Shown here: positions 9,602-15,932 of the stretch, in pieces
How the letters are laid out: every line of letters starts with the position of its first letter
Numbering within the stretch: the first letter of the stretch is position 1
Assembly: GCF_988242995.1 (NCBI RefSeq)
Contig: NZ_OZ547043.1
Length of the DNA stretch: 64,000 nt
Strand: one strand, 5' to 3'
The notes under the pieces: model-generated
The model's input: the letters and a program-made list of their open reading frames with translations, nothing else
What the model was told of the DNA's origin: nothing
The model's database searches: none
Program-made: the position numbers and the translations under genes

Positions 9602-10363
9602 ATGGAGACTGTTTTTGACGCACTGAAAGCAATGGGAAAAGCCACATCCATAGAACTTGCTGCGCGACTTGATATCAGCCGTGAAGAAGTGCTGAACGAA
9701 CTATGGGAACTGAAAAAGGCTGGTTTCGTTGATAAAAGCGCGTACACCTGGCGTGTGGCTGATAACAACGTTCAGCAGGAACAGCCAGCGCCGGCAGAAC
9801 TGCCGGAAGAAACTACCACGGCAACAGTCGCGAAAATTTCAGAGAGCGATTTAACTGCGACGATTGAACAACGTGGTCCACTAACTGCGGATGAACTGGC
9901 TACGTTGTTCGGTACCACATCCCGCAAAGTGGCTTCAACGCTGGCAATGGCAATCAGCAAAGCTCGTCTGATTCGCGTTAATCAGAACGGTAAATTTCGT
10001 TACTGCATGCCGGGCGGTAATTTACCAGCAGAGCCGAAAGCTGCATCGGTAGCGGAAACAGATGGTAAAGCCTTTCCTCAGCTAGCCGGTGTTGCGTTAC
10101 CAGTACAGGAAGCTGCAACACAGGAAGATATTAAAACAGAAACTGTGGCGGACATTGTGCAGTCGTTGCCATCGTTTACTGAAACGCAAGCGGATAACCT
10201 GATTTTACCATCGCTGCATATGGCAAACCGTGAACTGCGTCGGGCGAAAAATCATGTCCAGAAGTGGGAGCGAGTCTGCGCCGCGCTGCGGGAGCTGAAC
10301 AAGCACCGGGATATTGTTCGACAGATTTTCGATTCCTCCAGTCGTATTGTGTCGGAAAAGTGA
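9602..10363 (+). CDS. Phage protein with N-terminal winged-helix-like domain (intact counterpart of K-12 ydaW remnant?)
   Basis: ORF 9551..10363; likely start ATG 9602 ([30 protein letters not shown]...); the earlier in-frame start at 9551 would overlap ydaV. Confidence 0.5.
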
Positions 10364-10378
10364 TTGCCGGAGGCACCT

Positions 10379-10810
10379 ATGGCAAAAGTATTTACACCAG
10401 AAGAGCGGGAAAAAATTAAAGGGCAGGTTGTTGAACTTGTACGTCTGAGCGGTCGCGAGACGTTACGGGCTCTGGAGGCTAAAACCGGTGCATCAAGGTA
10501 TTACATAAGCACTCTCGCCAGAGAACTGGTCGCCAGTGGTGATGTTTACAATTCAGGCTACGGATTATTCCCGTCTGAGCAGGCTCGTAAGGACTGGCAA
10601 AACGCCCGCAAAAAACTATCCAGGGCAAAGGTGAAAAAAACGGTTGTGGTTGATCCTGACCTTATCTGGTCATTACCAGACGGAGAAATACGCCGCTACG
10701 ACAGGCGCCTGAATATAATCTGTCGCGAGTGCCGGAAAAGCGAAGTTATGCAGCGTGTACTGGCATTTTACCAGAGTAATTTCAGGAGGTTGTCTGGTGA
10801 GCACGATTAA
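10379..10810 (+). CDS. Hypothetical phage protein (143 aa)
   Basis: ORF with ATG at 10379 preceded by GGAGG; no family recognised. Confidence 0.5.
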   Translation: MAKVFTPEEREKIKGQVVELVRLSGRETLRALEAKTGASRYYISTLARELVASGDVYNSGYGLFPSEQARKDWQNARKKLSRAKVKKTVVVDPDLIWSLPDGEIRRYDRRLNIICRECRKSEVMQRVLAFYQSNFRRLSGEHD

Positions 10811-10835
10811 CTACTAGGGGGGATAACAATAAAAT

Positions 10836-10855
10836 AAAGCCTCCTAGGAGGCTTT
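10836..10855. terminator. Bidirectional intrinsic terminator between convergent genes
   Basis: Perfect palindrome aaagcctcctaggaggcttt flanked by T-runs on both strands; overlaps MTase stop codon. Confidence 0.6.
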
Positions 10856-11884
10856 GATTATATTAAGCAAATGTTTTCCAATCGTTTCAGACATCTTCGG
10901 AGGGACCGCATTTCCTATTTGACGAGCCCGAGATTGCAAAGAACCAATAAATTTATAATCCAAAGGAAATGTTTGTAGACACGCTGCTTCACGAACCGAT
11001 ATTGCTCGATTTTGTGTTGGATGTCCAAAACGTCCATTTGAATAGCTAATACAACGAGTTGTTAGTCCGCTGGCTGGTTTGTCCCAACTCAAACGTCCAT
11101 ATACGTCTGTATGCCCTTTATGGTTACGATGGCATTCTAAAATCAATTCATCTGGCCAAAATTCTCGACTTCCACCTTCAGGAGTGCATTTTATTCTACG
11201 TAAATTAAGCTCTGATAAGCGTGCAGCTTCATGATCAGGAATACTATTATGCTTTTCTCCTGCTTCTATCTTCGGTAAATTAGCGATCCAGTCCTTTACT
11301 GTTGAATAGGGAGTATTTCCAACCCCATGTGTAGGAGAAGGCAATGCGACATAAAAATCCTTGGATGCAATGAGCACTAATCTTTCTCGCGTCTGTGGTA
11401 CACCGTACCACGCAGCTGGCATTACTTTATAATCTACACTATATCCCTTTGATGAAAGCATTTCTAAAAACATCATGAATGTTCCTTCATTTTTGTTAAA
11501 CTTTTGCATTCCTGGCACGTTTTCAACAAAAATAAAATCAGGCATATAATGCTCTACAAAGCGACTGAATTCCTTTAATAGATCTAATCGTGGATCATCA
11601 TTTTTCTTATTTGAGTTTTGCTTAGAGTACGGTTGACAAGGCGCACATCCTGAAAAAAGAATGTAATCATTACGATGTTTTTTTACTAACTTGTTTATGG
11701 CATTGTTGTCGATTAACCTAATGTCCGAGTTAATAAAAGCAGCCTGCGGGAAATTTGCACGAAATGAACTGGCTGCATCAACGTCGAAATCGAGGCCAAA
11801 AACAATATCCATTCCAGCTTGATGGAAACCTTGGCTGGTTCCACCACAACCGGAAAAGAAGTCAAACACTTTGATTTTTTTCAT
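10844..11884 (-). CDS. DNA (cytosine-5)-methyltransferase
   Basis: Motif I FDFFSGCGGTSQGF, motif IV GCAPCQPYS (catalytic Cys), motif VI FVENVPGM, motif VIII QTRER, motif X GNAVPP; ATG 11884 with GAGGG SD; ORF track extends to a GTG at 11908; visibly AT-rich. Confidence 0.85.
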   Translation of the reverse strand: MKKIKVFDFFSGCGGTSQGFHQAGMDIVFGLDFDVDAASSFRANFPQAAFINSDIRLIDNNAINKLVKKHRNDYILFSGCAPCQPYSKQNSNKKNDDPRLDLLKEFSRFVEHYMPDFIFVENVPGMQKFNKNEGTFMMFLEMLSSKGYSVDYKVMPAAWYGVPQTRERLVLIASKDFYVALPSPTHGVGNTPYSTVKDWIANLPKIEAGEKHNSIPDHEAARLSELNLRRIKCTPEGGSREFWPDELILECHRNHKGHTDVYGRLSWDKPASGLTTRCISYSNGRFGHPTQNRAISVREAACLQTFPLDYKFIGSLQSRARQIGNAVPPKMSETIGKHLLNIIKAS

Positions 11885-11907
11885 TTTTCCCTCTGCATCC
11901 AGAATCA

Positions 11908-13737
11908 CTACCTAATGATACCACGGTCAAGAGCCTGAGTAATTATTTTTCTTATTTTTATAAATTCAGGCAATTCATTTTTAAGTCTTGCGGTCATCAT
12001 TTGTTGGAGGCAAAAAATTTCCTCTGCATTTACTTCTTCTTTATCATACAGGTGTTGCGCTAATAATCTTATTTGATTCTTATACAGTTCTGGATCATTA
12101 GAACTCCAGGTCTGTGAATCAATTATTTCTTTTTCACTTGGCGTAATTGCCTTTTCAATGAGTAATTGTTCGGGAGTATCAAATGGTAAATACTTCACTT
12201 TATTGAATGCATACTCAAGCACTTGCCTTTTGAGTCTATTAGATTCTTGTTCATTTTTTTTGCCATTACTACCACTGGCATTGATAATTAACTCGCAACC
12301 ATAATATTTGCACATTGTATTAACTAAATCAGCATCAGCAATTTCACTAATTCTTACTGGTTTTATTTTTTTGTTTTTATCACCATCAAGTAAAAACAAA
12401 ATATCATTGCGTTCTACCACAGCGTAACTGGGAAGATGCTTGCTTAAAATGGTCTCCGAACCACCTGGTATATAACTTACACTAAATGATAAGCTTAATC
12501 TTTCATCATTTTTAATCGCTTTATCTATAATTGCTTTAGCTAATTTATCTTCTACAATTATTGTTTTCTTGTTAATATCATGCCCTAGCTCTATAAAAGC
12601 TTCATCCGGTGCTATATTTTGAACTATTTTAGCTGTTTCACTCTCTTCATCAAAAACAAATAATTTAATGGCATCTTTGGGAAGAGTGTTCACAATAACA
12701 GGAGAATGGGTTGATATTACCACTTGATGTTTTTTCTGCTCAACAATAGAGTACAGAACATCCATCATCCTTTTTTGTGCACCAGGGTGAAGTGAAACTT
12801 CTGGTTCGTCAAGAAGAATTAATGAATTAGGTTTGGCCGAATAAATATTGAGTATTAGTGAAACTATTGCAAATTCACCACTTCCAGCAAACGCTTCTGT
12901 ATAGTTCAACTTATCAGTTGAAAGTAAAGCGGTTCCTCCTCTGGTTCCAAATAACCGATGCTCAAGAAATTTAATGACTTTATATTTTTTCCCTAATATA
13001 AATGAGACGTGCTCAACTAGTTCTGGCGCCAAGGTTATATTTTTAACAATGGTTTCCGCCCCCCAGAGTCTTAAATTACTTAGCTTTTCATCAAAAGCTT
13101 TCTTTATATATTTAGATTTGCTTCTGATATAGTCTTGCTTTGTAATTAATACACCACTCTTCTTCTTTCTTAATTTAAAATCAGAGTGATACATACATCT
13201 ATCAAATGCACTTATTTCCGATCTGAAATCTAGGAAAACCAATCCCTTCTTGATTTTTTTCCATCTGGTTGCATTACTATTAGCACCCAGATCATCCGAA
13301 ATACTCTCCATGTTATCACCAACAGATGGTCGACTTGTTTCCCAATAATCGATTGTTTTCTTGGTAGCATTGATACGTGCTTGGAGTATTTCAACTAAAC
13401 GGCCATCAGCATTTTTATATCCATATATATATCTAGGTTTAAGAGAACTGCCATCAGCAAGTTTTAGGTCAGGAAACTCATCTGTTTCAGTTGTGAACCA
13501 ATAACGAGTTATATTTTTACCATGTGGGCAACCAAATAGCGCTTTGATAACAGAACTTTTATTAGTTCCATTTTTTCCTACTAAAGCCGTTATAGGGAAC
13601 TGAAAATCGATCCTTGCATTCTGCTCTATATTTTTAAAGTATGGAAAACGGATATGTTGTATGAATGGTTCAAATTCACCGTTTTTTAACGCGCACTGGA
13701 GTGTTCGAATTTTGCTCTTGTATGCGGAAGTGCTCAT
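11908..13737 (-). CDS. OLD-family-like nuclease: N-terminal ABC-type ATPase plus C-terminal Toprim-like domain (609 aa)
   Basis: Walker A LVGKNGTNKSS; signature-like AGSGEFAIVSL; Walker B/D-loop LILLDEPEVSLHP; H-loop VISTHSP; C-terminal Toprim-like E (TIIVEDKLAK) and DxD (LFLLDGDKN); stop lies 23 bp from MTase ATG; visibly AT-rich. Confidence 0.7.
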   Translation of the reverse strand: MSTSAYKSKIRTLQCALKNGEFEPFIQHIRFPYFKNIEQNARIDFQFPITALVGKNGTNKSSVIKALFGCPHGKNITRYWFTTETDEFPDLKLADGSSLKPRYIYGYKNADGRLVEILQARINATKKTIDYWETSRPSVGDNMESISDDLGANSNATRWKKIKKGLVFLDFRSEISAFDRCMYHSDFKLRKKKSGVLITKQDYIRSKSKYIKKAFDEKLSNLRLWGAETIVKNITLAPELVEHVSFILGKKYKVIKFLEHRLFGTRGGTALLSTDKLNYTEAFAGSGEFAIVSLILNIYSAKPNSLILLDEPEVSLHPGAQKRMMDVLYSIVEQKKHQVVISTHSPVIVNTLPKDAIKLFVFDEESETAKIVQNIAPDEAFIELGHDINKKTIIVEDKLAKAIIDKAIKNDERLSLSFSVSYIPGGSETILSKHLPSYAVVERNDILFLLDGDKNKKIKPVRISEIADADLVNTMCKYYGCELIINASGSNGKKNEQESNRLKRQVLEYAFNKVKYLPFDTPEQLLIEKAITPSEKEIIDSQTWSSNDPELYKNQIRLLAQHLYDKEEVNAEEIFCLQQMMTARLKNELPEFIKIRKIITQALDRGIIR

Positions 13738-13885
13738 TGTTTACTAAAGTCCATAATAGGCTATTAACAGGTTGAGGATGACATGATAACGATTTTTAAT
13801 GCAGATAAAAGAGGTTTGTTGGTTAGCACACAACAGAAAAAGTGACCTTACCGCTTGAACGAAAGGTAAGGGTAAGTAGGCTGTG

Positions 13886-14038
13886 ATGCAGCAAAAGACG
13901 ATGTTAATCGCCCTGATTGTCATCTGTATTACCGTCGTTGTGATGGCACTGGTAACAAGGAAAGACTTCTGCGAGGTACAAATCCGAACCGGTCAGACGG
14001 AGGTCGCTGTCTTCACAGCTTACGAACCTGAGGAGTGA
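13886..14038 (+). CDS. hok: Hok/Gef-family type I toxin (50 aa)
   Basis: Hand translation MQQKTMLIALIVICITVVVMALVTRKDFCEVQIRTGQTEVAVFTAYEPEE; close to K-12 HokD/RelF as I recall; GC-rich hairpin ggcgagggagaaatccctcgcc downstream. Confidence 0.8.
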   Translation: MQQKTMLIALIVICITVVVMALVTRKDFCEVQIRTGQTEVAVFTAYEPEE

Positions 14039-14503
14039 GAGACCAGGCGAGGGAGAAATCCCTCGCCACCTCTGATGAGTCAGGCATCCTCAACGCACCC
14101 GCACTTAACCAACTTTGGCGGGTATATTTTATCTGTGAATATTTTTATAAAAATAATGCCCACGCACAGCATAAAACAAAAAGTATTACAGATAAAAAAG
14201 GAACGTAATGTGCAGATTTGTTGTTTTCCATATTTACTCACCTTAATATGATTAACCCTAATAGGGTTGTTATTTCAGCGGTTTTCAAATGAGATATTAT
14301 GGTGATCTGGCAGATTTGCATAACATTAAAATTTAATTTGTTTAACCGCTTTTAATAATAAGCGTTGTTTGTATCCCAGCAATCTGTTGTTTGGTTTTTA
14401 TTCCATTAAGGTGGGGCTTTACACTGGAGCCAGTTTATTTATACTTCATACGTCAGCCTGAACAACTGGCATCTGCTGCGCTGCGCCATCGAGAGATTAA
14501 GAA

Positions 14504-15103
14504 ATGGCGCATATACAACTGGTCAAACAAACCTCTTCCGGATTACTTCTCCCGGCGACGCCGGAGAGTTGTGATTTTCTGCATCAAATCAAAATAGGCG
14601 AGTGGATACACGCAGACTTTAAGCGTGTGCGTAACTACGCATTCCACAAGCGTTTTTTCAAACTCCTGCAACTGGGATTCGATTACTGGACTCCGGTCGG
14701 TGGGGCGATCACGCCTCGCGAACGAGAACAGCTGTCTGGTTTCGTTGATTACCTGTGCGAATCAGTTGGTCGGGAACACACGCCAGCCCTGAGTGATGCC
14801 GCAGAGCAATATCTGAATACAGTTGCGACACGCAGAACCCGGGATACGGCATTGCTAAAGTCGTTTGAGGCTTTTCGCGAGTGGGTAACCATTCAGGCTG
14901 GATTTTACACCGAACATTTTTATCCGGACGGTAGCCGCGGGCGTCGGGCAAAATCTATCGCTTTTGCGAATATGGACGAAACCGAGTTTCAGCAGGTTTA
15001 TAAATCTGTTCTGAATGTGCTGTGGAACTGGATTCTGTTCCGTAAATTTTCCTCTCCGGAACAAGTCGAAAATGTGGCCGCGCAGCTGCTGGAGTTTGCG
15101 TAA
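14504..15103 (+). CDS. Phage protein, DUF1367-like (nin-region)
   Basis: 199-aa ORF MAHIQLVKQTSSGLLLPATPESCDFLHQIKIGEW...; family call from memory and position before the YbcO-like gene. Confidence 0.5.
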   Translation: MAHIQLVKQTSSGLLLPATPESCDFLHQIKIGEWIHADFKRVRNYAFHKRFFKLLQLGFDYWTPVGGAITPREREQLSGFVDYLCESVGREHTPALSDAAEQYLNTVATRRTRDTALLKSFEAFREWVTIQAGFYTEHFYPDGSRGRRAKSIAFANMDETEFQQVYKSVLNVLWNWILFRKFSSPEQVENVAAQLLEFA

Positions 15104-15393
15104 TGGTGGATTTACGTAAAGCGGCGCGGGGGCAGATGTGCACCGTCAGAATTCCTGGCTACTGCAATCACAATCCCGAAACATCTGTGCTGGCGCATTA
15201 CAGGCTGGCGGGGACGTGCGGAACAGCGACAAAACCACACGATATGCAGGCAGCGATTGCCTGTAGCTCATGCCACGATTTAATCGACGGGCGGGTAAAA
15301 ACCAGCGATTACACCAAAGAAGAATTACGCCTGATGCATGCAGAAGGTGTTTTTCGCACACAAGAAATCTGGAGAAAGGAAGGTTATTTATGA
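15103..15393 (+). CDS. YbcO-like putative nuclease (DUF1364)
   Basis: 96-aa ORF MVDLRKAARGQMCTVRIPGYCNHNPETSVLAH...CSSCHDLID; resembles DLP12 YbcO; Cys/His motifs. Confidence 0.7.
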   Translation: MVDLRKAARGQMCTVRIPGYCNHNPETSVLAHYRLAGTCGTATKPHDMQAAIACSSCHDLIDGRVKTSDYTKEELRLMHAEGVFRTQEIWRKEGYL

Positions 15394-15932
15394 TTTACCC
15401 AACAAATACAGGCAAAAGCGGGGAACACCTTCGTCTCACCACGCTGGAAAGTGTCTGGATTCAGGGAAAACTGCGCATGTGGGGGCGCTGGTCGTATATT
15501 GGCGGCGGTAAGACGGGAAATATGTTTAACCAGTTGCTGGCATCCAAAAAATTGACGAAAACAGCCGTCAATGAAGCCCTGCGCAGGATGAAAAAAGCGG
15601 GAATAGAGAAACCTGAGCTGGAAGCGTTTTTGCGAGAGATGATCAATGGCAAGCAAAAGACCTGGCTGGCGCATTGTACTGATGCAGAGGCGTTATGTAT
15701 TGATAGAGTCATAAGTGAGGTGCTGGCAGAGCATCCTGGATTGATTAGTGTCCTCCGGCAACGGTATGAAGGACGGGGGATGACTAAGCGCAAAATGGCT
15801 GAATTGCTAAATGATGCACATCCTGAGTGGTGTTTTAGCACATGCGAAAAGCGAATTGCTAATTGGTTGGCTGTTGCTGAGTATGCCCTATATATTCCCA
15901 TGCGAGAATTATTTGCTCAAAAAATAGCTTGA
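15390..15932 (+). CDS. Putative late-gene antitermination protein (Q-like) by position
   Basis: 180 aa from MIYPTNTGKSGEHLRLTT...; last gene of the nin block before the lysis cassette; family not confirmed. Confidence 0.4.
   Translation: MIYPTNTGKSGEHLRLTTLESVWIQGKLRMWGRWSYIGGGKTGNMFNQLLASKKLTKTAVNEALRRMKKAGIEKPELEAFLREMINGKQKTWLAHCTDAEALCIDRVISEVLAEHPGLISVLRQRYEGRGMTKRKMAELLNDAHPEWCFSTCEKRIANWLAVAEYALYIPMRELFAQKIA

What the first reader, a model, noticed from the sequence alone, without database searches (positions are those of the whole stretch)
10844..13737. C5-cytosine methyltransferase co-transcribed with an OLD-like ATPase/Toprim nuclease: candidate undescribed restriction-like defence module
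Seen in sequence: two same-strand genes 23 bp apart, both visibly AT-rich against GC-balanced prophage flanks, bounded by a bidirectional terminator (10836-10855) and a 650-bp AT-rich upstream region. The 346-aa protein carries the full C5-MTase motif set (FSGCGG, PCQ, ENV, QTRER, GNAV). The 609-aa protein has an ABC/AAA15-type ATPase (Walker A GKNGTNKSS, LILLDEPEVSLHP, STHSP) and a C-terminus with Toprim-type acidic motifs (IIVEDK ... LLDGDKN), the architecture of OLD-family nucleases. Established knowledge: OLD-type nucleases act in anti-phage defence standing alone (P2 Old), with a UvrD-like helicase (Gabija), with retrons, or as AriA/AriB (PARIS); ABC-ATPase nucleases such as PrrC are guarded by restriction-modification enzymes. 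Inference: I do not recall a described system pairing an OLD-like nuclease with a Dcm-like methyltransferase, so this may be a new RM-like or methylation-guarded abortive-infection system. It sits in the replication-to-nin moron hotspot and is absent from K-12 Rac.
Basis: partly seen in the sequence, partly recalled or inferred. Interest (0 to 1): 0.88.

Follow-up and report, generated by a model that had tools for sequence, protein, structure and literature searches.

The report
Cytosine methylase paired with OLD-type nuclease
A prophage in this E. coli window carries a tightly linked gene pair, a DNA cytosine methylase and an ATP-driven OLD-family nuclease, that recurs as a unit in about 80 bacterial species and is most likely an undescribed kind of restriction-modification-like anti-phage module.

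Summary
Two minus-strand genes lie 23 nt apart and have 31-41% G+C against about 50% in the flanks. They encode a 609-aa ABC-ATPase/Toprim (OLD-family) protein and a 346-aa C5 cytosine methyltransferase with all catalytic motifs.

The pairing is not chance. In one genome per species, 73 of 80 homologues of the nuclease have a C5 methylase within 5 kb, and 54 of these are directly adjacent on the same strand, often with overlapping codons. Only one of the seven exceptions has informative flanks. Starting from the methylase finds the same nuclease.

ATPase and Toprim catalytic residues are invariant in 80 of 80 sequences. The family has about 550 clusters at 50% identity. Its best PADLOC match is a partial hit to HEC-04. 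No REase model ranks among the best matches, no source calls it a restriction enzyme, and I found no paper describing an OLD-methylase pair.

In other phyla the same nuclease is built into larger m5C systems: HpaII R-M, GHKL proteins, a receiver-domain protein and Vsr.

Best reading, about 50%: methylation marks self DNA and the OLD-like nuclease attacks unmarked DNA. Rivals are methylation-gated abortive infection and a PrrC-like guard. I rate it a new variant of known kinds. Function is untested.

The parts
11908..13737 (-). CDS of the 609-aa OLD-like ABC-ATPase/Toprim protein (stop codon included). PGAP names it 'ATP-dependent nuclease', WP_033547277.1.
   Evidence: ORF and PGAP name. Pfam AAA_21/AAA_15 match residues 49-350. 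PADLOC gives HEC-04 at 1.5e-34 and ATPase-Toprim_I-B at 3.8e-26. AF2 model pLDDT is 85.6, with Foldseek top matches 6p74 OLD and GajA.
12613..13662 (-). ABC-ATPase head with inserts (about aa 26-375): Walker A G54-S62, signature S286-G-E288, Walker B D310-E311, H-loop H344.
11911..12570 (-). Toprim core plus C-terminal helical region (about aa 390-609): E396-D397, D451-G-D453, E523, K553.
   Evidence: The model of aa 380-609 has pLDDT 93.2 and pTM 0.88. Its top four PDB matches are OLD C-terminal regions 6njv, 6njx, 6nk8 and 6njw (prob 0.99-1.0, TM 0.37-0.42). Residues are invariant. Pfam Toprim models did not match.
11885..11907 (-). 23-nt intergenic spacer with the Shine-Dalgarno-like GAGGG before the methylase ATG.
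   Evidence: Sequence read. Homologous pairs have a median spacer of 11 nt (nuclease first) or 0.5 nt (methylase first), and 17 pairs overlap.
10844..11884 (-). CDS of the 346-aa C5 cytosine DNA methyltransferase (WP_000721512.1), catalytic Cys83 in PCQ.
   Evidence: Pfam PF00145 at 6e-61. NCBIfam TIGR00675 dcm scores 166 bits against a cut-off of 100.65. PADLOC MTase_II at 1e-96. Motifs read.
10835..10856 (.). Hairpin with T-runs on both sides. It is the likely terminator of the pair and of the convergent DUF977 gene, and it overlaps the methylase stop codon.
   Evidence: Terminator-like hits on both strands; sequence. This is a consensus match only.

Best explanation
The two genes form one defence module that works on restriction-modification logic.

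- The C5 methyltransferase methylates its target sites on the resident DNA, both chromosome and prophage.
- The 609-aa protein is the effector. It is an OLD-family enzyme in which an ABC-ATPase head binds ATP, dimerises and engages DNA, and so controls a C-terminal Toprim two-metal nuclease.
- It acts on incoming DNA that lacks the m5C mark, most simply by cutting it, so that a lysogen excludes superinfecting phages and plasmids.

Shown here: the domain architecture, the intact catalytic residues, the operon layout, and the near-obligate linkage of this nuclease family to C5 methylases across phyla.

Inferred: that methylation protects; that the target is DNA rather than tRNA; that the nuclease is toxic without the methylase; and the recognition site. 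A HgiDII-like site (GTCGAC) is only a lead from a source annotation. Whether the nuclease reads the site itself or is directed by the methylase, as Mod directs Res in Type III systems, is open.
For: 1. Linkage from the nuclease side. Among 80 species-level homologues from many phyla, a C5 methylase lies directly adjacent on the same strand in 54, adjacent on the opposite strand in 2, and within 5 kb in 17 more. Of the 7 without one, 3 are cut by contig ends. In 3 others the flank is filled by the GHKL and receiver genes that separate methylase and nuclease in sister loci. Only L032 is a clear negative.

2. Linkage from the methylase side. Three of three methylase homologues at 61-67% identity have the roughly 600-aa gene just upstream. 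All 10 distinct neighbourhoods of the exact methylase have it too.

3. Operon-like spacing. The median gap is 11 or 0.5 nt and 17 pairs overlap. Both gene orders occur, as in R-M systems.

4. The methylase is more conserved than the nuclease, for example 66% against 41% in L011. The two identity matrices correlate at r = 0.50.

5. Both catalytic centres of the nuclease are invariant in 80 of 80 sequences.

6. The only decayed alleles seen have a frameshifted nuclease (495 + 119 aa) with an intact methylase (also L015). None had the reverse.

7. In loci where the inserted gene is a GHKL-HEPN (NmeAIP-type) or double-GHKL protein with no recognised DNase, the OLD-like protein and Vsr are the only nuclease candidates.

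8. The pair sits in prophage moron and defence positions: the Rac-type nin region, between Q and holin, next to an integrase, and next to a CI-type repressor.
Against: - There is no experimental evidence of any kind.
- No REase_II model ranks among the 25 best PADLOC matches, which reach down to E 6e-13, and the models show no recognisable sequence-reading domain.
- In Bacteroidota the nuclease follows a complete HpaII-type methylase-REase pair. There it is at best a second nuclease, and it must work with methylases of at least two specificities.
- Relatives with the same architecture do not need a methylase (HEC-04, IbfA). Some cleave tRNA rather than DNA: P2 Old in a 2026 preprint, and PARIS AriB (abstracts).
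- In the window's clade the nuclease gene comes first and there is no controller protein, which is risky on entering an unmethylated host. EcoRI has the same order (established knowledge).
- The Toprim fold match is modest (TM about 0.4) and Pfam Toprim models are silent.
Confidence: 0.5

Rival explanations
1. Methylation-gated abortive infection. The methylase still marks self DNA. The ABC-ATPase part of the OLD-like protein acts as a sensor of unmarked or replicating foreign DNA, and the Toprim domain then cleaves tRNA or nucleic acid indiscriminately. The infected cell stops growing instead of the invader being cut specifically.
For: P2 Old is reported to sense DNA structures through its ABC domain and to cleave tRNA. 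The PARIS Toprim protein AriB degrades tRNA (abstracts). IbfA, a HEC-04 homologue, gives an abortive phenotype, and HEC-04 was toxic when induced. The linkage evidence fits this reading as well as it fits direct restriction.
Against: Retron-Eco8 OLD and GajA cut DNA (abstracts). A DNA-modifying partner is most simply explained by a DNA target. Nothing in the sequence points to tRNA recognition.
Confidence: 0.2
2. PrrC-like guard. The OLD-like nuclease is held inactive by the methylase, or by the R-M complex it is embedded in. It is released when a phage disables methylation or restriction, for example by SAM depletion or an anti-restriction protein, and then kills the cell.
For: The nuclease is appended to complete or complex m5C R-M loci: HpaII, HgiDII-like or NmeAIP-like GHKL proteins, and double-GHKL plus receiver plus Vsr. 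This resembles PrrC and RloC inside Type I loci. ABC-ATPase guards of R-M are an established theme (PARIS is triggered by Ocr).
Against: In the window's whole clade, and in 54 of 80 loci, there is no restriction enzyme to guard, only a methylase. Phages gain nothing by attacking a lone methylase. No evidence of protein-protein contact could be obtained here.
Confidence: 0.12
3. Two independent morons that merely travel together: a stand-alone HEC-04/IbfA-like abortive nuclease, and an orphan phage methylase that protects phage DNA from host restriction.
For: HEC-04 and IbfA defend as single genes. Prophages often carry orphan methylases; Dam and N6_N4 methylases occur in the same prophages.
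Against: The adjacency is kept across Proteobacteria, Actinobacteria, Firmicutes, Bacteroidota, Acidobacteria, Patescibacteria and Planctomycetota, in prophage and non-prophage settings, with overlapping codons and correlated divergence. The HEC-04 profile covers less than half of the protein.
Confidence: 0.05
4. A repair accessory of m5C methylation. The ABC-ATPase/nuclease would process T:G mismatches or methylase-DNA adducts created by the partner methylase, a MutS-like or Vsr-like role.
For: Vsr genes sit next to the nuclease in the larger loci. GHKL (MutL-like) partners recall mismatch repair. MutS is an ABC ATPase (established knowledge).
Against: Where Vsr is present the nuclease is present too, so it does not replace Vsr. 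The pair has low G+C, sits in moron positions, and has a patchy distribution (31 of 5426 E. coli genomes). That pattern fits a mobile defence gene, not a repair gene.
Confidence: 0.05

Closest known systems
OLD-family nucleases, Class 1 (P2 Old, Thermus scotoductus OLD, PDB 6P74)
   Same: Single polypeptide with an N-terminal ABC ATPase carrying inserts and a C-terminal Toprim plus helical region. 6p74 is the best PDB match by sequence profile (2e-11) and by Foldseek (1e-13). It is prophage-borne like P2 Old.
   Different: Class 1 is defined as a lone gene, whereas this family is near-obligately linked to a C5 methylase. Sequence similarity is limited to the ATPase signature region; the PADLOC Old profile matches only residues 301-356. 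Identity to 6p74 is about 14%.
HEC-04 / IbfA (PADLOC candidate; ABC ATPase fused to Toprim)
   Same: Best PADLOC match (1.5e-34). Same fused architecture. In HEC-04 both Walker A and the Toprim acidic residues are needed for defence.
   Different: Only profile positions 160-383 of 494 align. The N-terminal half and the C-terminal helical extension differ. HEC-04 and IbfA act as single genes without a dedicated methylase.
Gabija GajA (Class 2 OLD)
   Same: Full-length structural similarity (Foldseek 3e-12 to 1e-11). GajA is a sequence-specific DNA-nicking OLD enzyme (abstract), which shows that an OLD nuclease can read DNA sequence.
   Different: No UvrD-like GajB partner is present. GajA profiles match only about residues 305-370. 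Gabija has no methylase.
Type II restriction-modification systems with m5C methylases (EcoRI-like two-gene operons; HgiDII, HpaII)
   Same: A methylase plus nuclease operon in either gene order, with overlapping genes. The methylase is more conserved than the nuclease. Distribution is mobile and patchy. Decayed alleles lose the nuclease first. One source names a homologue of the methylase M.HgiDII.
   Different: The nuclease has an ABC ATPase and a Toprim catalytic domain. From my own knowledge, the known REase folds are PD-(D/E)XK, HNH, GIY-YIG, PLD and half-pipe. No REase_II model ranks among the best PADLOC matches. ATP dependence would be unusual for Type II.
PrrC / RloC and PARIS (ABC-ATPase guards linked to restriction)
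   Same: An ABC-ATPase-controlled nuclease encoded inside or beside R-M loci. The multi-gene variants look similar.
   Different: There is no HEPN anticodon-nuclease domain, no Type I R-M partner, and the ATPase and Toprim are fused rather than split as in AriA/AriB. In most loci there is no restriction enzyme to guard.

Membership tests
OLD-family nuclease (ABC ATPase + Toprim) | N-terminal ABC-type ATPase with Walker A, signature motif, Walker B and H-loop | tested here: met
OLD-family nuclease (ABC ATPase + Toprim) | C-terminal Toprim domain with conserved Glu and DxD, followed by a helical region that contributes a catalytic Lys | tested here: met
   E396, D451-G-D453 and K553 are invariant. 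The model of aa 380-609 (pLDDT 93) has OLD C-terminal regions 6njv, 6njx, 6nk8 and 6njw as its top four PDB matches. The PADLOC ATPase-Toprim_I-B profile aligns through residue 464. Caveats: TM is only 0.37-0.42, and there is no Pfam Toprim match.
OLD-family nuclease (ABC ATPase + Toprim) | Metal-dependent nuclease activity | not testable with these tools
   Needs purified protein.
HEC-04 / IbfA | Full-length match to the HEC-04 profile | tested here: not met
   The best stretch is residues 232-459 against profile positions 160-383 of 494.
HEC-04 / IbfA | Acts as a single gene without a dedicated partner | tested here: not met
   A C5 methylase is adjacent or nearby in 73 of 80 loci and in all E. 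coli alleles examined.
Gabija | GajA next to a UvrD-like helicase GajB | tested here: not met
   No helicase is next to the gene in the window or in L001-L009. GajA profiles match only the ATPase signature region.
PARIS | Separate AriA (ATPase) and AriB (Toprim) proteins | tested here: not met
   ATPase and Toprim are in one 609-aa polypeptide. AriA profiles match only the ATPase part.
Retron type I-B (Eco8) | OLD effector beside a reverse transcriptase and an msr/msd RNA | tested here: not met
   The neighbours are hok/gef, DUF977 and the methylase. Rfam finds nothing in 10000-15500.
Type II restriction-modification system | Active DNA methyltransferase with all catalytic motifs | tested here: met
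   PF00145 at 6e-61 over residues 4-339. TIGR00675 scores above its cut-off. Motifs I, IV, VI, VIII and X were read.
Type II restriction-modification system | Cognate nuclease gene conserved next to the methylase | tested here: met
Type II restriction-modification system | Nuclease belongs to a known restriction-enzyme family | tested here: not met
   No REase_II model ranks among the 25 best PADLOC matches. No NCBIfam restriction model scores above its cut-off; TIGR04435 scores 35.7 bits against 300. No source names it a restriction enzyme. REBASE itself could not be queried.
Type II restriction-modification system | Site-specific cleavage that is blocked by the cognate methylation | not testable with these tools
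   Needs restriction assays and methylome mapping.
PrrC/RloC-type guard | ABC ATPase fused to a HEPN anticodon nuclease and embedded in a Type I R-M locus | tested here: not met
   The C-terminus is Toprim, not HEPN. No hsd genes are nearby.

The most novel reading that the evidence does not exclude
This would be a fifth genomic class of OLD nucleases, defined by obligate linkage to m5C methyltransferases. It would constitute a previously unrecognised type of ATP-dependent restriction-modification in which a Toprim domain, a fold not known among restriction enzymes, is the restriction activity. The nuclease would possibly be directed to unmethylated sites by the methylase itself. The same nuclease module would be reused as the effector of larger GHKL, receiver-domain and Vsr m5C systems.
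Probability: 0.4. Interest if true: 0.78.

Novelty: new variant of a known kind. Interest (0 to 1): 0.62.

Why it matters
- **For the OLD field.** If the pair works as proposed, it adds a class whose trigger is simple and testable: absence of m5C. How lone OLD proteins are activated is listed as an open question in the field.
- **For restriction enzymes.** It would add a new catalytic fold and an ATP-driven mechanism.
- **For other m5C loci.** It would suggest which protein is the nuclease in m5C loci whose annotated 'restriction enzymes' are GHKL ATPases with no recognised nuclease domain.
- **Practical reach.** The pair is present in widely used strains such as E. coli ATCC 8739 and in prophages of Klebsiella, Yersinia, Salmonella, Citrobacter and Pseudomonas. 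It may therefore affect transformation efficiency and phage host range.

Tried and rejected
- **Pfam on the nuclease** gave no Toprim match, only AAA_21, AAA_15 and AAA_23. I therefore modelled the protein.
- **NCBIfam** gave nothing above its cut-offs for the nuclease.
- **Rfam** on 10000-15500 found nothing, and ARAGORN found no tRNA in the window.
- **Collections.** The phage-isolate collection had no homologue at 1e-20. The plasmid collection had one distant homologue, in Clostridium.
- **Literature.** Five searches for an OLD/Toprim plus cytosine-methylase system found nothing relevant. The PluTI and MORC papers mention OLD only in other contexts. Krishnan et al. 2020, the ABC ATPase classification and the most likely place for a prior mention, is not held.
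- **Complex prediction.** I considered predicting the methylase-nuclease complex from a concatenated sequence. I rejected this because the tool returns no inter-chain error estimates.
- **Recognition site.** I considered inferring it. The only leads are a source name, 'M.HgiDII', for a 63%-identical homologue and 40% identity to the methylase of a HgiDII-type locus. That is too weak to commit to GTCGAC.
- **Promoters.** The promoter scan was no better than shuffles (15 sites against 12.5 +/- 3.5). No promoter is claimed.
Full report
**1. The observation**

The window has two ORFs on the minus strand. One runs 11908..13737 and gives 609 aa. The other runs 10844..11884 and gives 346 aa from the ATG that PGAP also uses. 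The nuclease stop is followed by 23 nt containing GAGGG and then the methylase ATG.

G+C falls to 0.31-0.41 over the pair, against about 0.50 on both sides. A hairpin with T-runs on both strands lies at 10835-10856 and overlaps the methylase stop codon.

The 650 bp upstream is not empty. It contains a divergent 51-aa Hok/Gef toxin gene at 13883-14038.

The setting is a Rac-type prophage integrated next to ttcA. The pair lies between the replication genes (ydaV-like, DUF1627, DUF977) and the nin/Q-like genes (DUF1367, DUF1364, DUF1133). K-12 Rac lacks this entire segment.

**2. The two proteins**

The 346-aa protein is a complete C5 cytosine methyltransferase.
- Pfam PF00145 matches at 6e-61, and TIGR00675 scores above its cut-off.
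- All motifs are readable, including the catalytic Cys83.

The 609-aa protein has an ABC-type ATPase.
- Pfam AAA_21 and AAA_15 match.

For the C-terminus, Pfam gives no Toprim match, so I modelled the structure.
- The full model (pLDDT 85.6) has Thermus OLD (6p74) and GajA as its best Foldseek matches, with alignments that span the whole chain.
- A separate model of residues 380-609 (pLDDT 93.2, pTM 0.88) has as its top four PDB matches the C-terminal regions of the Xanthomonas and Burkholderia OLD proteins (prob 0.99-1.0). TM-scores are modest at 0.37-0.42.

In an alignment of 80 sequences the following residues never vary:
- Walker A Lys60
- the SGE signature
- Walker B D310-E311
- His344
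- Toprim E396-D397
- D451-G-D453
- Lys553

The protein is therefore an OLD-family ATPase-nuclease with both active sites under selection.

**3. Is it a named system?**

- PADLOC's best match is HEC-04, an ABC-ATPase/Toprim single-gene defence candidate homologous to IbfA of plasmid R64. Only profile positions 160-383 of 494 align.
- The next matches are the retron I-B ATPase-Toprim effector, AriA, PtuA, Old and GajA. Most of these cover only the ATPase signature region.
- No REase_II model ranks among the 25 best PADLOC matches, and no NCBIfam model reaches its cut-off.
- PHROGs has a family of unknown function, phrog_3940, that covers residues 23-555.
- Public sources call the protein only 'ATP-dependent nuclease', 'AAA family ATPase' or 'ATP-binding protein'.

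**4. Is the pairing real?**

- *From the nuclease side.* Full-length homologues at 38-67% identity in other E. coli prophages, in Serratia and in Bradyrhizobium are each followed by a C5 methylase.
- *Species-level scan.* A scan of one genome per species returned 80 loci. They come from Proteobacteria, Actinobacteria, Firmicutes, Bacteroidota, Acidobacteria, Planctomycetota, Patescibacteria and other phyla. An iterative profile search of their ORFs found a C5 methylase in these positions:
  - directly adjacent on the same strand in 54 loci (33 downstream, 21 upstream)
  - adjacent on the opposite strand in 2 loci
  - within 5 kb in 17 more
- *The exceptions.* Seven loci have none. Three are cut by contig ends. 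In three others the flank is filled by the same two large genes that separate methylase and nuclease in sister loci, so the methylase probably lies just outside the fetched DNA. Only one, Agromyces L032, is a clear negative.
- *Spacing.* Gaps are operon-like, with a median of 11 nt or 0.5 nt and 17 overlaps.
- *From the methylase side.* Homologues from Klebsiella, Yersinia and Pseudomonas syringae all have the nuclease gene just upstream. So do all ten distinct neighbourhoods of the exact E. coli methylase.
- *Divergence.* The methylase is the more conserved partner, and the two divergence matrices correlate at r = 0.50 over 70 pairs.
- *Family size.* A search of 1.84 billion representatives gives 548 clusters at E <= 1e-30. 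The best 150 are nearly all full length.

**5. Distribution in E. coli**

Three diverged alleles of the pair occur.
- The window type is in 31 of 5426 complete genomes, including ATCC 8739.
- Two others are in about 8 and about 10 genomes. Both lie between the Q antiterminator and the holin of lambdoid prophages and are transcribed against the late operon.

No sequenced phage isolate carries a homologue at E 1e-20.

A frameshifted nuclease allele (495 + 119 aa) with an intact methylase exists in several samples. I saw no case of the reverse.

**6. Larger architectures**

In the clade where the methylase comes first, extra genes are inserted between methylase and nuclease.
- *Bacteroidota.* The insert is a full-length HpaII restriction endonuclease (PF09561, 2e-144).
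- *Other loci.* The insert is a BbrUII/HgiDII-family GHKL protein, in one case with a C-terminal Ymh/HEPN domain, and Vsr lies downstream.
- *A third type.* The insert is a roughly 1000-aa protein with two GHKL modules plus a roughly 550-aa protein with a Response_reg_2 receiver domain, again with Vsr.

These GHKL proteins correspond to the R.HgiDII, R.NmeAIP and R.EcoUTORF4938P types, for which no nuclease fold could be assigned. The GHKL-HEPN type has been proposed to be a PrrC-like suicide module.

The window lies in a clade that is purely two-gene, with the nuclease first.

**7. Mechanism**

The simplest account of a near-obligate methylase-nuclease operon is restriction-modification logic, for four reasons:
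- both gene orders occur
- the methylase is the more conserved partner
- both nuclease active sites are kept
- decay takes the nuclease first

On this account methylation marks self DNA and the OLD-like enzyme acts on unmarked DNA. I put this at about 0.5.

Three points keep it from being higher.
- No sequence-reading domain is evident.
- The nuclease works beside methylases of at least two specificities, and in one clade beside a complete HpaII system.
- Related OLD and Toprim effectors can be tRNases triggered by DNA sensing.

The ranked alternatives are:
- a methylation-gated abortive system (0.2)
- a PrrC-like guard (0.12)
- independent morons (0.05), contradicted by the synteny
- a repair accessory (0.05), contradicted by co-occurrence with Vsr and by the mobile, patchy distribution

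Whether the methylase supplies target recognition, as Mod does for Res in Type III systems (established knowledge), is an open and testable sub-question.

**8. Novelty**

OLD proteins are currently classed as follows:
- lone genes
- Gabija
- retron-linked
- PARIS-type

Neither the 2023 review nor a July 2026 preprint mentions a methylase-linked class. The preprint does not contain the string 'methyl' at all. Five literature searches found nothing.

Two limits apply. REBASE, current DefenseFinder models and the Krishnan et al. 2020 classification of ABC ATPases could not be consulted. The PADLOC copy dates from 2023.

I therefore rate the pair a new variant of known kinds, an OLD nuclease combined with R-M logic. 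It is not categorically new.

**9. Verdict**

The function remains untested. Interest is 0.62.

Noticed in passing
It travels with the pair in all ten E. coli neighbourhoods shown. Rfam found no Sok-like RNA at gathering threshold.
   Followed up: partly
L056, L059, L067, L069, L070, L073, L053 (e.g. L056:1620-5709): In Bacteroidota the OLD-like gene is the third gene of a methylase / HpaII-endonuclease / OLD-like operon (RE_HpaII PF09561, 2e-144). A complete CCGG-type R-M system therefore carries the same nuclease as an add-on.
   Followed up: partly
L049, L062, L085, L071, L060, L083 (e.g. L049:238-7198): A five-gene m5C system: C5 methylase, a roughly 1000-aa protein with two GHKL ATPase modules (BbrUII-like N-terminus, histidine-kinase-like C-terminus), a roughly 550-aa protein with a Response_reg_2 receiver domain, the OLD-like nuclease, and Vsr. 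It looks like a phosphorelay-controlled restriction system. Apart from Vsr, the OLD-like protein is its only recognisable nuclease.
   Followed up: partly
L038, L044, L046, L043: HgiDII/BbrUII-family GHKL 'restriction enzymes' sit between the methylase and the OLD-like gene. The L044 copy carries a C-terminal Ymh/HEPN domain, the R.NmeAIP type. Published fold assignments found no nuclease domain in these proteins, so the neighbouring OLD-like gene may be the real nuclease of such loci.
   Followed up: partly
L112:3001-5895 and L113:287-3181: An E. coli allele in which the nuclease gene is split by a frameshift (495 aa + 119-124 aa) while the methylase downstream is intact. L112 also has a Fic-domain gene inserted near hok. 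The nuclease of L015 (Halospina) is also split. No allele with a broken methylase and an intact nuclease was seen.
   Followed up: partly
window 10844-11884 (-): By sequence, the methylase's best solved-structure relatives are the catalytic domains of eukaryotic DNMT1 (E 1e-38), well ahead of bacterial M.HaeIII (1e-20) and M.HhaI (1e-14).
   Followed up: no
L002-L006, L090, L091-L093, L099-L101: Other alleles of the pair in E. coli and Klebsiella always sit between the Q antiterminator and the holin of lambdoid prophages, transcribed opposite to the late genes. In Klebsiella the pair lies next to a HicAB toxin-antitoxin pair. In P. syringae (L097) it lies directly after the CI-type repressor gene.
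   Followed up: partly
L008:3286-5458: In Bradyrhizobium the pair is preceded by another two-gene unit, a 441-aa AAA_21/AAA_15 ATPase plus a 281-aa protein with no Pfam match. It may be a second ABC-ATPase defence system in the same island.
   Followed up: no
window 1-64000 versus L001:17568-17721: ARAGORN finds no tRNA gene anywhere in the window. The closely related ATCC 8739 prophage has tRNA-Thr and tRNA-Gly about 2.4 kb beyond the pair, so the two prophages differ downstream of the nin region.
   Followed up: no
L098 (K-12 MG1655 1417000-1427000): K-12 Rac goes from a short ydaW straight to the rzpR pseudogene and trkG. It has lost the whole DUF977-to-lysis segment, not only the methylase-nuclease pair.
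   Followed up: yes
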